In this document: piece after piece, positions 1-6,000 of the stretch
Layout of the letters: every line of letters starts with the position of its first letter
Position numbering within the stretch: position 1 is the stretch's first letter
Assembly (NCBI GenBank): GCA_045535075.1
Contig: JAZSKX010000018.1
Span: forward strand, 1 to 64,000
Length of the DNA stretch: 64,000 nucleotides
Reading direction: 5' to 3'
Origin: Candidatus Spyradenecus sp.
GTDB taxonomy: Bacteria; Verrucomicrobiota; Verrucomicrobiia; Opitutales; UBA953
Made by a program: the position numbers

Positions 1-3000
1 AATCCCGCTTGTCCTCGTAAGTGTGCACAAGCGTCAGATTGCTCGGGCACGCCAGCGATTCCAAAAGATTTGTCCCCGAAAGGTAATTATAAGTAAACGT
101 TTTTTCCGCGCCGCCGTGAACAAAACACGCCGTCGCAAGCCGCCCCGTCGCTTCCGCGTAAGTCGTTCCCGTGGTCTGCTGAACGCTTCCGTTCTTCGCG
201 TAAACGTAGCCCGTGCCGCGCCCAAACGCGTCGCGAAGCTCCGTCACGGCGTGCGCGATTGCGTCGCCCGTGAGCGTTTCGCTTTCGACTTCGTTGTAAT
301 TATTATAAACATACACACGCATTCCCGAGGCGTCGACGCTTTGCGTGAGTTGCCCGAGGTGGTTGTAAACATGCGTTTCGCCGGGCGTGCCGTCGTTGTA
401 GGAAACGGAAACGAGTTCGCCCGTTTTTTCGGCGTAGGCGCGCGTCGCTTTCAGACGCGTTCCCGCCGAGACTTCCCGCGTCCAAGTCGTCGAAGCCAAG
501 CGATTAAATGCATCGTAGGCGTAATCAAGCTGCCCTTCGTCCGGATAAATCTTGCTGAGCAAAAGCCCCGTCGCCGCGTGGTAAATCCAGCGCGTTTCGT
601 CAGCCGCCAAGTCCTCACGGGAACGCGGATCGCCCTCAATCACTTCGCCCGCCACCCGGAAAAGCTTTTGCAACACGGGATTGTTCGCATCGTCAAAGCC
701 GAAAACAACCGGTTGCGTTCCCGTGCCGAACTCGGCAACGACGTTTCCGCGCAAGTCATACGCGTAGCAATGCGTTTTCCCGAGCGCATCCGTCACGCAA
801 GACGGCTTGCCGTGCGCGAGGTTGTAAGCGGTCGTCGTAACATTGCCCGCCGCATCGGTCGTTTTCGTCGTCCACCCGAGCACATTTTGCTCGACGACGC
901 TTGCGTTCCCGCGTCCGTCCGTCGTCGTAAGGACAATGCGCGCGTTTTCACCCGTGTAATATTGCCGCGCAAAGCTTGTTTGCGTTCCCGCGTGGTCGGT
1001 TTGCGAAACGGTAAAGCCGTCGCTCGTTGTTGTCTGCGCAAGGTTTGTCGCCGTCGGTAATTGTATTTTGGATACACGGATTCCGGGTTCTCCGAATTCC
1101 GTCCAACGCACGGTTGCGTTCCCGCGAACATCCGTCGAAACCGTCTTGCTCTCAAGCGTCGCGCTTTCGGAAACAAGCGTTGCAACCGAGCTCACAAGCG
1201 CCGTTCCCGCCGCGTTGTAACTTGTCGTGGAAACAAGGCGGTAAACGCCGTCGGTGCGGTTTTCAACCTGAGTCGAAGTTTCGGTGATACGCGAATTGAG
1301 CGCGTCCGGCTCGTCTGCAAGCGCAAGCGTGCGCTTCGTTTCGTTGCCGAACCCGTCGTATTCGTAAAGCGTCGGCGCAAGCGTTCCCGTCTGCGAGCGC
1401 ACAAGAAGCCCGCGCGCATCATAAGTATTTGTCGTGCAAATAAAATCACCCTGCGTGTTCGGCGTTTCCGAGCGTAACGTTTCGCCGAAACCGTTTTTGA
1501 TTTCACGGGAAAGAATCCCGGTCTCGCCGCTCGTTCCCGCAAGGCGGCGCGTCGTGCGAATGCCGTCGGAAACCGCATCAACGATGATTTCTTCGGAGCG
1601 GCGTGACGTTCCCGATTCGCGAAGCACAACGCCGCTTGCGTGCGTTTTCGTGATGCGCGTCGCCCCGGACGAAAGCGTCGCGGTTTGCGTGCGCGTTCCC
1701 GCGTCCGCATCTGTCGCATAGGCGTGCGCCGTTGTTCTGCCGAGCTCGTCCGTTTCGGAAACAATGCGACCGAGCGCATCCCAAACCGTTGATTTTTCGG
1801 TGAAATCAACCGAGTTTAATTTTAAAACTTCTCGCGTGATGCGCCCGGCGGCATCGCGCGTAAAGATTTGCGTGCGCTCGGGCTGCGTCGCCGTGAGCGA
1901 ACGCGTTTTTTCAGCAAGCTGTTGAGCCGTGTTGTAGGCGTATTCGGTGAGCACGCCGTCTTCGTCGCGCTCCCAAAGCGTGCCGCAGCACATCGACTCG
2001 CGCTCCGAAACACGACCGTTCCCGCGCGTGCGCTTCGTTTCTCGGTTTTGCGCATCGTATTCAAAATCCGAATACGAAACAAGACGCCACGTTCCCGCTG
2101 AATCGAGAAGAAATTTTTCGGCGCGAAGAACGTTCCCGTCCGAAGAAATAAACTTCACTTCGCGGGACGATTTCCCCGGAACGGCTTCACCCGCGATGCG
2201 CGTCTCCGCCGTTTGCGTGTAAAGCGCTCCGTAAAGCGACGTGCCCGCGTAAGCGTAATGCGTTTGCACGCCGAGCTTGTTTTGCGACATCTTCACGCGA
2301 CCGCGCGCGTAAACATTCCCGCAAGTGCCGATGAAGGTTTCTTCAACCTCAAGCTGAACATTCTCCGAGCCGAGCGCTGTCGTGCGACGCTCAACACGGC
2401 GAAATTCCGATTGTTCGCTATAAGTGTAATCGGTGCGTGAATACAAAATCGGCGAACCGTCGGACTTTTCCAGGGCGACCCGCGAATAGCTTAAATCGCT
2501 GTCGTTGCTCGCTTCGTTTTCATAATAAAAGTAAGTGATCTTGCGCCCGAGAACGTGCGGTTCGTAACGCGCGGAAACACGCCCGAAACGGTCGAAAGTC
2601 GTCTCGAAAACGCCGCCGTCGGGACGCGTTTCTTTGACAAGACGCCCGGACGTGTCGTAGCCGAACACCGTCGTTTCCGCGTAATTCGTGCCGTAGCCTT
2701 CCGTGCGCGAAACGCAGAGATTACCGAGCGCTTCGTCGATTTCAAAAACTTCCTCAACTGAACCTGCGGGAACGCTTTCTCCGGAACGTAATTGCTCGGT
2801 AATTACACGAAAACGCTTCTCCGAAATCGCCGTGCGCGTCCGCCGCGTAATGATTTCTTCCGAACCCGAACCGACGGAGGAATTCCAAACCCCGTTCTCA
2901 AACCAAAGCGAACGCGCAAACGCCGTCGCTCCCGCGCGCGAATCCCGCTCCGTTATCGTAAGCTTCTGCGGCTCCGTTCCCGAAAGCGCAACCGTAAAAC

Positions 3001-6000
3001 GCTTAAACGGCGTTCCCGTAGCCGCGTAAAACCCCGTTCCCGCATCCTTCTCCCCGACTTGACCCGGCAGGTAAAGCGCAATCTCATAGCCGCTTGCGGA
3101 AACGTTTTCAACACTCGCCAAACCGTCCCACAAATTCCAAACCTGACGCAAAACCCCGTCCTCATCACGCACAATGTCGAGGTAAGCGGCAAGTTCCGCT
3201 GCCGTCAGCACGTTCCCGTTTTTCGTTTTGTAGGAAAGAACTTCGCCCGTTGCCGCCGAAAACTCAATCGCACTTTTGTCCGTCTGCGTCAAAACTAACG
3301 CCGTTTTATCCGCAGTCCACGCAAGCCTCGAAGTCGTTTTCGATGAAGTTCCGATCGCAAAAAATCCGCCGCCCGAACCGTCGCAATACCACGACGTGTA
3401 GCTCCCGCCCGTAAAAATTTTTAACTGAGAATCCGATTCAATTCCGCCTTCGGGAAGCACAAGCCAGGTATTGAGCGGATGCGAAAACTCAAGTCGCGAC
3501 GGAGTCGAAATGTATTCATCAAAAACATACGATAAAATCTCAAGAGAACCTGCGGGAACGCCGCCCAATCCGCGAAACACGCCGAAATCCGTTTGCCAAT
3601 GCGCGTAATTCGCGTTCGCAACCAAGCGCGTATTGCGCCCCGAAGAACTCGACGAGCTCTCAGAAACCGCACGGGAACGCGCCGAAGTCTCTTTGAACTC
3701 GATCCCGCCAAGGTCCTCCGTCGGGCATTCGCAACGATTCTCATCCGGGAAAGGAGCGTTTTCGTCGGGAATAATATTACCGACATCTTCGCCCGGAAGC
3801 GAAAAATCCAAGCGCGCAACATTCAGCTCCGGCGGATTGTAATTAATATTAAAATACGAAAGAGAAACTTCGTAAACACCGGGAAAAAGCGAAACGGAAG
3901 CACTACCGCCCGTGTACGGACTGCCGCCTTGCACGCCGTAGTTGCCGCCGGGCGGAACCGTCACGGAACAATCGCAGATGCTCAGCGTCGCGCCGTCGTC
4001 CGCTCCCAGAAAAACCGTTCCCGCAATCGGATTGCCGTCCCAATTCTCCGGCTCGGGAACGCGGCGCTTCCAACGCCACTCGCACGAAAAACCCTTGTGC
4101 GGATCAATGCCGCTGATGTCCCCCGGAACCGGCGTAACAATCGCCGGCAAATACCCGACGTCCGGCGACAACGAACGCACCCGACCGACAAAACCGAAAC
4201 CCAATGAGATACTTCTCCGCTTCACAAAAACCTTTCTCCGATAATTTGACCAAACCCGAACGACCGCCGCCCGAAGCTCTGTCTTATATGCCAAACCCTC
4301 CTAACGCAAAACGCAAGCCCCCAAAGATAAATTTTTGTTTATAATTCCCCTCCAAACTCGATAATCCGAGGAACAAGTCGCGCGAAAACTAATTTTTTTG
4401 TAAGTTTTCGAGCAAATCAAGCGTAAGAGCCCGGAGATTCTTCCACGGATCACGGGAAATCCACGTCGCGTTTTCGCCTACAGCTTTTTCAAAAAGATCT
4501 TTCATCGGCAGGAGAACGAATGTGCGTTCCCGCCACCGCGGATGAGGCAAAGCCAGGAATTTCGAATTTCGACTCTCATTTTCAAAAAAGAGTAAATCCA
4601 AATCGCAAGTACGGGGTGCGTTAGCAAACGGACGTTCCCGCCCAAGGGCTGTTTCCGTTTTTAAAAGCAAGTCGAGCAACGTCTCCGGCGAAACATTCTT
4701 CGGAATTTCCAATGCTGCAACGCCGTTCATAAAATCCGGCTGGTCGGTATATCCGACAGGCTCGGTTTCAATAAAATCCGAGACGGCAAGCAGGCGCATT
4801 CCTGCAGATTCAAGTCGAACCAACGCCTCCCGCAAGGTGTGCTCGCGGTCGCCGAGATTCGCGCCGAGAGCAATAATCGCAACGGATTTTTCCATAAAAA
4901 GAAAGCGTTCCCGCCGTATGACGAAAACGCTTTGATAAAAATCTATTCTTGGGCGCCGGCTTCCTGCGGCGGCGTAACTTTGAAAAGTTCTTCGCCGATG
5001 CGTTCGCTAAGCTGCACATTCAACGTCGAAGAAGAAATCTGCGCATTGAGAAACTCCGTCAGGCGCACGAACTCTTCCGAGTTTTTATCAATTTGCGGCA
5101 CATCCTTTTGAATCGGACGCACGAAAAACGCAATATCTCCGGCGTAAAGAATATCCGAAACCGCATTAATCGGCGTAGACTTGAGCGATTCGAAAAGTGC
5201 GTAGCTAACAAGCTGCAATTCGGCGGGAACGTTTTGCATCGTGGCGCCGGACTCTTTTTTCGCCGTCATTCCAAGCGCCTTTGCGGCAACGTCGAACGCC
5301 TTACCGCCGGCGACTTCTTTGCGAAGCGTTTCTCCGATTTCGCGTGCACGGTCAAAGCGCAAAGTATCTTTTTCAGCTTCGAGCCAATCGGCGGTAACGC
5401 GTTCGCGAATCTCGCTCAGGGCAGGAATACGCGACGGATCGCTTCCCATGAAAAATACAACGAGTGCATTTTCGCCGTAGGGAATTGCATCCGTGCGCCA
5501 AAGCGTAGCGTTCAGCGAAGTTGCGACATCGCGAAGCACCGCTTCGGGAATCGGCGGATTCGCGGGAACGGTATCTTGCGGGAACGGCGCGATATTTTTG
5601 AGTTCCAAGCCGGCAGCTTTAACGCTCTCCGCAAAATTCGGCAAATCGGGGCTGACAAGATCCTGCGGGAGCTTGTCGGCAAGCATATCGGACGTCGACG
5701 AGGCCACCTGCAAGGACAGGCGATCTTCTTTCCAGCGCTTGATCCATGCGGCTCGATTTTTCGCAAGTTCTTTTGCGACGGCATTGTCATCGGTGAGCTT
5801 ACGATCTTGCATGCGTACGAACATTTTCAATTCGGAATCCTGCGGCTCGCCGATTTTAGAGCGCATTTCCGCCGTCGGCTTGACAACGGCATAGGCGAGT
5901 TTGACCATCGGAGCGATACGATAATTTTCCGCATTTGCCGTAAAATATTTTTCCAAATCCGCATCGCTTGCTTTGGGCGCGACAGCGATTTTATCCAAAG

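What a model noticed while it worked through the whole genome (the two positions that open the first line are those of the whole stretch)
2..4225. T6SS-less Rhs toxins headed by a PA14-type DD lectin domain that also heads the atp-island proteins
The genus has 1,800-1,900-aa Rhs proteins with variable tips and orphan arrays but no type VI system and no signal peptide; they begin with a 110-aa beta-sandwich with an invariant Asp-Asp, like PA14 sugar-binding domains. The same domain heads g01460 and g01465 in the atp island, marking those pairs as likely members of this polymorphic system.
Evidence so far: g00358 is the Rhs N-terminal part; full-length homologues in congeners. Domain profile hits g01465 (twice), g01460, g00928, g00707 and the N-termini of 5 of 6 full-length Rhs, 1e-41 to 5e-3. 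DD invariant in 16 rows; model pLDDT 87, Foldseek PA14 hits prob 1.0, E 3e-3. No VgrG in 5 of 5 genus genomes; no Hcp/PAAR rows.
(Added by a program. Inside this text positions count along the whole contig: contig position 1 is position 1 of the stretch shown here. "Call 12" and the like, gene names such as g00115 and contig names such as C1 are that model's own, and its searches are not shown. The text may have been shortened before it was handed on; [...] marks where a part breaks off. The agent that wrote the report below was given it as the finding of a first reader that could run no searches.)

Follow-up and report, generated by a model that had tools for sequence, protein, structure and literature searches.

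The report
Lectin-headed Rhs toxins lacking export signals
Gut Verrucomicrobia, including Akkermansia, carry large toxin-type Rhs proteins that start with a predicted sugar-binding domain where their other relatives have a secretion signal, so how these proteins leave the cell and what they bind becomes a testable question.

Summary
Window 2-4225 (-) is the first 1,408 aa of an Rhs protein; the contig ends before its tip. It starts with a ~120-aa beta-sandwich carrying Asp76-Asp77 and Asn126, the DD-N triad of Ca/glycan-binding PA14 domains. PA14 homology is supported by profile-profile comparison (95.8%), a 1.8-billion-protein search and fold search (top hit RsgI3 PA14, Z 8.0). The same head is on the atp-island proteins (95.5%). 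TssC, Hcp and PAAR: 0 of 19 genus genomes. New here: the family spans Verrucomicrobiota (74 of 401 genomes). Spyradosoma- and Akkermansia-type members have the head and no signal peptide (35 of 36; 0 of 36). Most others have a signal peptide and no head (26 of 31). A published study found Rhs proteins enriched in Akkermansia vesicles that inhibit a rival clade, and cited T6SS export, which I did not find in Akkermansia. Best reading: released, glycan-targeted polymorphic toxins with an unknown export route. Sugar binding, export and toxicity are untested. The island pairs look like toxin-immunity modules, but their C-terminal domain matched no known toxin.

The parts
2..4225 (-). Rhs gene, N-terminal 1,408 aa (P0001); 3' end, autocleavage motif and tip lie beyond the contig end
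4231..4239 (-). Shine-Dalgarno-like GGAGAAAGG, 5 nt before the GTG start; no signal peptide follows
   Evidence: sequence read; start matches Met1 of orthologues
3788..4138 (-). PA14-type head domain, aa 30-146
   Evidence: profile hit iE 1.9e-11; model pLDDT 84.3; top fold match 6qe7 Z 8.0, rmsd 3.4, 109 aligned; HHalign to canonical PA14 95.8%
3995..4000 (-). Asp76-Asp77 (GAC GAC), the predicted DcisD calcium/sugar site
3848..3850 (-). Asn126, the predicted CBL2 Asn of the DD-N triad
   Evidence: invariant in 13 of 13; same column as the Asn aligned with RsgI3; N in 53 of 69 heads
3635..3733 (-). CxC motif plus Arg-Ser-Arg / Ser-rich linker (aa 165-197); possible tether and cleavage site (inference)
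   Evidence: C165, C167, S184, R185, S193, S194, G196 invariant; seen in Akkermansia-type rows
2..3634 (-). Rhs/YD shell, beginning with a Verrucomicrobiota-wide post-head domain (aa ~198-530); RHS repeats from aa 523

Best explanation
The gene encodes a cocoon-type Rhs polymorphic toxin: head - Cys/Ser linker - YD shell - autocleavage motif - variable tip, followed by a cognate immunity gene and orphan tip cassettes. SHOWN by computation: the architecture, tip variability, a PA14-fold head with the DD-N triad, no T6SS, no signal peptide, and no conserved neighbouring secretion gene. INFERRED: the head binds Ca2+ and a surface glycan and so aims a released (diffusible or vesicle-borne) toxin at a competitor's surface, or holds it on mucus or vesicles, while the variable CBL2 loop sets specificity. 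INFERRED: export is Sec-independent, most simply in extracellular vesicles, as reported for Akkermansia Rhs proteins. The head is a mobile binding module reused on other predicted toxins in this genus: the atp-island PA14-Ig-CTD proteins with their signal-peptide partners, transglutaminase-like proteins, and shell-less head-tip fusions.
For: Rhs and variable tips: (Ntox16 above cut-off in P0010 and P0023; PLA2-like tips below cut-off in three proteins). PA14: 95.8% to canonical repeats; Ig and reversed controls 0.3-4.5%; 12 of 13 tested multi-repeat hits are Pfam PA14, one is a filamin false positive; all six PDB sequence hits weak, E 0.026-0.12; the three shown align at DD. Triad: DD+N 50, DD+T 13, DD+S 3, ED+N 3 of 69 rows; the triad is defined in passages of PMC6852018. 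No T6SS; TssC 0 of 5 Akkermansia-type genomes. FlhA, VirB4 and sheath: 0 of 5 over cut-off. Head versus signal peptide. No conserved upstream neighbour across 28 loci. Rhs proteins enriched in inhibitory AmII vesicles (PMC11923206 passages and supplement rows); YD proteins in the Akkermansia outer-membrane proteome (PMC4960237 passage). Head fused directly to an Rhs-type tip: P0061 vs P0011, E 2e-21. Island pairing 16 of 16; the CTD sits on other N-termini in five distant frames, four with a predicted secreted gene behind.
Against: No binding, export or killing data exist for any member. The window's own tip is missing. The window head scores no Pfam PA14 hit, and only 6 of 42 heads do at E<=1. 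Foldseek gives nothing at E<=0.001, and Z 8.0 is at the edge of what unrelated models reach. The authors of PMC11923206 report in the peer-review file that an Akkermansia Rhs-CT did not affect E. coli growth. None of the vesicle-enriched accessions appeared among the listed cluster members of my 9 matched Akkermansia proteins, so the vesicle link is by genus and protein class only. Some Akkermansia Rhs have degenerate heads (L208, L210, L211, L217) or neither head nor signal peptide (L218). 34 of 67 tips have four or more Cys, which fits passage through an oxidising compartment better than simple cytoplasmic packaging.
Confidence: 0.55

Rival explanations
1. The head (or the leader plus head) is the export tag of an undescribed Sec- and T6SS-independent pathway of gut Verrucomicrobiota. 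It replaced the ancestral signal peptide and marks Rhs and non-Rhs cargo alike, as MIX/FIX or LXG domains do for other systems (analogy recalled).
For: Near-exclusive pattern: 35 of 36 Spyradosoma/Akkermansia-type N-termini have the head and none a signal peptide, while 26 of 31 others have a signal peptide and no head. Head-bearing Rhs lie on one side of a branch in a quick tree (support 86). Signal-less island proteins and head-tip fusions all start with the head. EV intensities exceed lysate by about 3-9 log2 for most listed Rhs rows (column order assumed), which suggests active export.
Against: The head also occurs behind signal peptides (L165, P0148, L072, L076, L090) and at C-termini (L071, L077-L079). 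L218 and L193 lack both. The conserved residues are those of a Ca/glycan site. No candidate machinery is linked to the genes. The counts are not independent: two lineages, and one clade of genes.
Confidence: 0.2
2. These are adhesins or host-facing proteins (mucin or diet-glycan binders) rather than antibacterial toxins. The island pairs are ordinary two-gene surface or sensing modules.
For: PA14 domains with DD are adhesin and sensor modules (top matches Cea1A, Lap, RsgI3). Signal-peptide proteins with a C-terminal head sit upstream of histidine kinase/response regulator pairs. Rhs-CT had no effect in E. coli. The island CTD has no Pfam, fold or atlas match and is not among 67 tips.
Against: 33 tip clusters, orphan cassettes, a variable small gene behind each tip and Ntox16 tips are hallmarks of polymorphic toxins. 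The island has a CTD remnant plus partner, and orphan partners occur.
Confidence: 0.15
3. The proteins are released only by cell lysis (colicin-like or explosive vesiculation). No export signal exists or is needed, and the head only aims the toxin.
For: No signal peptide, no T3SS/T4SS/T6SS marker, no linked transporter. A head-less, signal-less member exists.
Against: No linked holin or lysis gene cluster was seen among neighbours (neighbours were clustered, not annotated). Strong enrichment over lysate in Akkermansia vesicles. Contractile-tail sheath 0 of 5.
Confidence: 0.1

Closest known systems
Sec/T2SS-type Rhs polymorphic toxins with N-terminal adhesion domains (Zhang et al. 2012, PMC3482391, passages read)
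   Same: [quoted passage not shown]
   Different: Those carry a signal peptide. PA14 and Akkermansia do not occur in the held 300,000 of 357,715 characters. Here the head stands where the signal peptide is in relatives.
T6SS PAAR/VgrG-Rhs effectors (knowledge; cited in PMC11923206)
   Same: No signal peptide, cocoon plus C-terminal autocleavage, orphan cassettes
   Different: No PAAR, Hcp, TssC or VgrG-sized protein in 19 genus genomes; the N-terminus is PA14-type
Akkermansia muciniphila Rhs/'WapA' proteins (PMC11923206, PMC8920140, PMC4960237; passages read)
   Same: Same family: the post-head domain profile finds them, and cluster names confirm Akkermansia species; multi-copy, clade-variable, found in vesicles and outer membrane
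   Different: The passages read describe no N-terminal domain and refer to T6SS export; I found a PA14-type head, no signal peptide and no TssC
PA14 DcisD-N lectin domains (RsgI3 6QE7, Cea1A 5A3L, Lap 6M8M, MpPA14 6X95; PMC6852018 passages)
   Same: Beta-sandwich, DD on the central strand, Asn in CBL2
   Different: Shorter and divergent, below Pfam cut-off, CBL2 Asn replaced by Thr/Ser in 16 of 69; cis peptide and ligand not tested
Xanthomonas perforans Bcn-A (PMC7259588, passages read)
   Same: Rhs-type bacteriocin active in supernatant, with an immunity gene; contact- and T6SS-independent precedent
   Different: Needs T2SS and three accessory ORFs; no PA14 head described in the passages read

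Membership tests
Rhs polymorphic toxin | RHS/YD repeat shell | tested here: met
   PF05593 E 1.5e-19, 7 stretches
Rhs polymorphic toxin | Conserved core ending in the DP...DxxG motif | tested here: met
   In the orthologue consensus; this part lies beyond the contig end for the window gene
Rhs polymorphic toxin | Variable tips, downstream small genes, orphan cassettes | tested here: met
   33 clusters among 67 tips; 15 other core frames in own genome; neighbourhoods
Rhs polymorphic toxin | Tip toxicity neutralised by the cognate immunity protein | not testable with these tools
   One negative E. coli test for an Akkermansia tip is reported in a peer-review file
T6SS-delivered Rhs | PAAR or VgrG adaptor and T6SS core genes | tested here: not met
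   TssC, Hcp, PAAR 0 of 19 with controls ringing; OB-fold hits only in 225/231-aa frames
Sec/T2SS-type Rhs | N-terminal signal peptide | tested here: not met
   0 of 36 Spyradosoma/Akkermansia-type N-termini by a hydrophobicity heuristic, versus 27 of 31 others; no SignalP was available; a secretin gene is present
PA14 superfamily | Homology and beta-sandwich fold | tested here: met
   HHalign 95.8%; top structural match Z 8.0
PA14 superfamily | DD plus CBL2 Asn triad in sequence | tested here: met
   D76, D77, N126
PA14 superfamily | Pfam PF07691 gathering threshold | tested here: not met
   No hit for the window head
PA14 lectin | cis Asp-Asp peptide, Ca2+-dependent sugar binding | not testable with these tools
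Toxin-immunity pair (atp-island genes) | Fixed downstream partner, orphan remnants, variable insertion | tested here: met
   16 of 16 unique CTD frames followed by the c1/c4 superfamily (HHalign 93%); remnant at C16:56772-56927; several insertion sites
Toxin-immunity pair (atp-island genes) | Recognisable toxin domain | tested here: inconclusive
   No Pfam, atlas best 0.81, residues 256-460 barely tested in fold search, not among 67 tips
T9SS cargo | PorP/SprF machinery | tested here: inconclusive
   0 of 5, but no control rang

The most novel reading that the evidence does not exclude
Gut Verrucomicrobiota (Akkermansia, Ca. Spyradosoma) run an undescribed toxin-delivery system. A PA14-type head replaced the Sec signal peptide and both sorts folded ~200-kDa Rhs cocoons and smaller non-Rhs toxins for Sec- and T6SS-independent export into vesicles and picks the target clade by its surface glycan. 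This would account for the clade-specific killing by Akkermansia AmII vesicles.
Probability: 0.2. Interest if true: 0.9.

Novelty: new variant of a known kind. Interest (0 to 1): 0.7.

Why it matters
Known Gram-negative Rhs toxins leave by T6SS or carry a signal peptide. This clade has neither, yet is multi-copy in Akkermansia, a probiotic candidate whose clades exclude each other by an unexplained vesicle activity enriched in Rhs proteins (PMC11923206). The head gives a concrete candidate for target specificity, with named residues to mutate, and the swap of signal peptide for head defines an open export question. It also groups several uncharacterised signal-less proteins (atp-island pairs, head-tip fusions) as candidate new toxins with a C-terminal domain of no known family.

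Tried and rejected
A single-sequence search with the window head found nothing else in its own genome (best E 1.5); the link needed profiles. Island-head profile versus Rhs-A proteins alone was weak. Complex prediction of P0026 (262-560) with its downstream protein gave no answer (score 0.00); it is not evidence either way. ESM Atlas: head, one cluster with PA14 in 13% of members at 0.93 (a lead only); CTD, best 0.81. Foldseek of full P0027 gave only generic Ig-rich hits; its Ig domain resembles T9SS C-terminal domains no more than other Ig folds, so T9SS was not pursued, and the PorP search was uninformative. Search for longer proteins with the CTD: none at E<=0.001 among 932 candidates, weak evidence. 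Downstream genes of two beta-rich tips are not clearly homologous (E 0.006). A Tat signal was rejected by eye: the Arg pair of the window leader is not conserved. A missed upstream start was judged unlikely: the longer TTG frame adds no hydrophobic stretch, and 9 of 10 Akkermansia proteins taken from my starts are on record exactly (gene callers only). Contigs of two metatranscriptome runs of one study cover parts of the ORF, but the tool states this does not show transcription. Matching vesicle-enriched accessions to my proteins failed among the 15 members listed per cluster. The careful tree did not finish; the quick tree was not tested with test_one_clade and included one spurious row and one mislabelled split gene. 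Literature searches that did not show this architecture: (the last: 0 papers with Akkermansia, Rhs and PA14); the library lacks most subscription papers. PMC9935623 was seen as a search listing only. Earlier scan notes held nothing on this system.
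Full report
1. The gene. The window is the first 64 kb of contig C5 of a 1.95-Mb, 99.5%-complete genome. Record titles and protein names of relatives point to Candidatus Spyradosoma, Opitutales, and the stretch is held by animal gut metagenomes (laid). The minus-strand frame 2-4225 gives 1,408 aa. Its GTG start follows a GGAGAAAGG and aligns with Met1 of 12 orthologues. Pfam finds only RHS repeats. The frame runs off the contig, whose end is repeated on C1 and C11, so this gene's tip is unknown. Seventeen of 19 genus genomes have relatives, several in 1,785-1,917-aa frames. The orthologue consensus ends in the usual Rhs core motif followed by unalignable tips. From all sequences then held I extracted 67 tips in 33 clusters (the pattern missed some). 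Pfam names few of them: Ntox16, PLA2-like below cut-off, DUF6973 (24 proteins scanned). Fifteen further core frames lie on C1, C6, C11, C12 and C13. This is a polymorphic Rhs system by anatomy.

2. The head is shared. A profile of 20 Rhs N-termini hit the island protein P0026 at E 4e-5 among 20,682 frames. P0026 in turn hit the N-termini of a second Rhs subfamily directly (39% identity, E 6e-17) in a search of 19 genomes, 14 with matches. A profile iterated from the three island heads converged on 84 distinct segments including the window's own head (iE 1.9e-11), all with DD (partly circular, as the motif drives the score). In the own genome the next frame after the true heads scores E 0.62. 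As a less circular test, separately built profiles gave Rhs-A versus island 95.5% (E 1.4e-8), Rhs-A versus Akkermansia 99.4%, Rhs-A versus canonical PA14 repeats 95.8%, Akkermansia versus PA14 93.4%, island versus PA14 74.7%, island versus Akkermansia 49.1%, and Ig or reversed controls 0.3-4.5%.

3. The head is PA14-type. The 42-head alignment folded at pLDDT 84.3 as a beta-sandwich. Foldseek found nothing at E<=0.001; its best match was the PA14 adhesin Cea1A (E 0.011, probability 1.0). VIA-align ranked the RsgI3 PA14 first both for the window head (Z 8.0, rmsd 3.4, 109 aligned) and for P0027's head (Z 8.2); the tool warns that such Z values alone can be a common arrangement. Sequence evidence is firmer. 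Of 410 hits among 1.84 billion proteins I scanned 13 multi-repeat hits from the best 150; 12 are Pfam PA14 and one is a filamin false positive. The six PDB sequence hits are weak (E 0.026-0.12) but are RsgI3, three lectin sequences, a Lap PA14 and PpNeuA, and the three shown align at DD. Passages of PMC6852018 define the Ca/sugar site as DcisD plus an Asn in loop CBL2, with CBL2 setting specificity. The window has D76, D77 and N126; across 69 rows DD+N occurs 50 times, DD+T 13, DD+S 3 and ED+N 3 (about three rows are duplicates). Against this: the window head has no Pfam PA14 hit, and 6 of 42 heads have one at E<=1.

4. No known export route. TssC, Hcp and PAAR are absent from 19 of 19 genus genomes with controls ringing. 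The gp5 OB fold rings in 2 of 19, in 225- and 231-aa frames. FlhA, VirB4 and sheath pass the cut-off in 0 of 5 genomes (three of this genus, two Akkermansia-type). PorP was inconclusive. A secretin is present. Across 28 loci the Rhs genes have no shared upstream neighbour beyond close kin.

5. The wider family. A profile of the post-head domain finds 74 of 401 sampled Verrucomicrobiota genomes, 38 of 184 genera, and 40 named loci, many of them Akkermansia. Of 109 N-termini, 12 were open at the 5' end and 25 were near-duplicates, leaving 72. Spyradosoma-type: 12 of 12 head, none signal-like. Akkermansia-type: 23 of 24 head, none signal-like. Others: 26 of 31 signal-like without head, 1 with both, 1 head only, 3 neither. 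Family f28: 5 mixed rows. The signal call is a hydrophobicity heuristic with a threshold set after viewing the values, and the head profile included Akkermansia rows; a genus-only profile still hits Akkermansia Rhs frames in 5 of 5 genomes, weakly. Of 20 full-length Akkermansia-type proteins, 16 have a head hit, three more look degenerate, and L218 has neither head nor signal. In a quick tree of 65 rows the head-bearing proteins lie on one side of a branch (support 86), and the window's subfamily sits inside a 24-row clade of otherwise Akkermansia-type proteins (support 98). That suggests gene exchange among gut Verrucomicrobiota; monophyly and direction were not tested.

6. Literature. PMC11923206 (passages, plus searches of its supplements) reports six Rhs proteins enriched in AmII vesicles that inhibit AmI, cites T6SS export in general terms, and states that direct evidence is lacking. 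Its peer-review file says an Rhs-CT did not affect E. coli. I found TssC in 0 of 5 Akkermansia-type genomes. I could not match the vesicle accessions to my proteins. PMC4960237 lists YD proteins among outer-membrane proteins (passage); PMC8920140 notes Rhs gain in A. muciniphila evolution (passages). PMC3482391 knows lectin-type domains on Sec-exported toxins but, in the held text, not PA14 or Akkermansia. PMC7259588 gives a diffusible, T2SS-dependent Rhs bacteriocin (passages). Nine searches did not show this architecture. Figures, bioRxiv supplements and subscription papers were not visible and could bear on novelty.

7. The atp island. Between atpH and atpA lie P0026 (two heads), a signal-peptide gene, a CTD remnant, a paralogous signal-peptide gene, P0027 (one head) and a third partner. 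P0027 folds (pLDDT 88.5) as PA14, Ig and an all-beta C-terminal domain with invariant W314-E315, H334, D351 and no family match. The same insertion site is used in three other genomes, and other sites elsewhere. All 16 unique CTD frames, three of them fragments, are followed directly by one partner superfamily (two clusters, HHalign 93%), and orphan partners occur. Distant CTDs in four other families sit on unrelated N-termini, four of five with a predicted secreted gene behind. This is how toxin-immunity modules behave, and I put it at about 0.55. But the CTD was not found among 67 Rhs tips, and nothing shows toxicity.

8. What the head is not. It also occurs behind signal peptides (TSP3-repeat and transglutaminase-like proteins, L090, and Rhs L165 and P0148), at the C-terminus of ~250-aa secreted proteins upstream of histidine kinase/regulator pairs, and fused straight to an Rhs-type tip (P0061 versus P0011, E 2e-21). 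It therefore behaves as a mobile binding module and is not by itself proof of membership or of an export role.

9. Verdict. Works like: a released, receptor-binding, bacteriocin-like Rhs toxin. Member of: Rhs polymorphic toxins, yes by anatomy; T6SS-Rhs and Sec-Rhs, no; PA14 superfamily, yes by homology, with lectin activity untested. Most likely mechanism (0.55): glycan-aimed toxin leaving by a Sec-independent, probably vesicular route. Rivals: head as export tag (0.2), adhesin (0.15), lysis only (0.1). New variant of a known kind; interest 0.7, mainly because the same architecture covers the Akkermansia Rhs proteins.

Noticed in passing
L071:5847-6602, L077:5481-6416, L078:5348-6097, L079:4994-5743: ~250-aa signal-peptide proteins ending in the same PA14-type head lie directly upstream of a histidine kinase and an OmpR-type regulator (Pfam checked for L071); a possible extracytoplasmic glycan sensor. 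L087 has a head-CTD pair before the same kinase/regulator clusters.
   Followed up: partly
L071:9272-11278, L072:3096-5231, L076:5376-6962: Signal peptide (with or without TSP3 repeats) + head + transglutaminase-like domain with apparent Cys-His-Asp, followed by a small secreted gene; a further candidate toxin type. Pfam Transglut_core E 0.0017, below cut-off.
   Followed up: partly
L074:5349-6287 (P0061), L075:4373-5128, P0073, P0075: Shell-less proteins with the head joined directly to a tip; may be deletion products or minimal toxins.
   Followed up: partly
tips of P0009, P0014, P0016, P0018, P0019, P0020 and L075: Several tips end in amphipathic beta-strands with a terminal Phe, resembling the BAM beta-signal (recalled); possible outer-membrane-acting tips.
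   Followed up: no
window 3635-3733: A conserved Arg-Ser-Arg in a Ser-rich linker after CxC could be a protease site that frees or tethers the head.
   Followed up: no
L034 (G000:C16:46000-66000): The atp operon is an insertion hotspot: besides the island it holds a Bro-N protein and a four-helix-bundle (23S_rRNA_IVP) gene, with different inserts in congeners.
   Followed up: partly
window 26095-31766: Cluster that looks like PilB/GspE, PilT, PilB and PilC genes of a type IV pilus or T2SS-like system (names recalled from the N-terminal sequences); relevant to export candidates.
   Followed up: no
window 12546-19889: FkbH-like, acyl-carrier, ketoacyl-synthase, reductase, acetyltransferase and sugar-aminotransferase-like genes, probably a surface-glycan modification cluster (names recalled); surface glycans could be what the heads read.
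   Followed up: no
G007:C33:70750-70953, G016:C79:486-689: Short gp5-OB-fold frames, probably prophage baseplate spikes rather than VgrG.
   Followed up: no
L192, L193, L201, L202: Some Akkermansia Rhs have very long poly-Ser linkers between head and shell.
   Followed up: no
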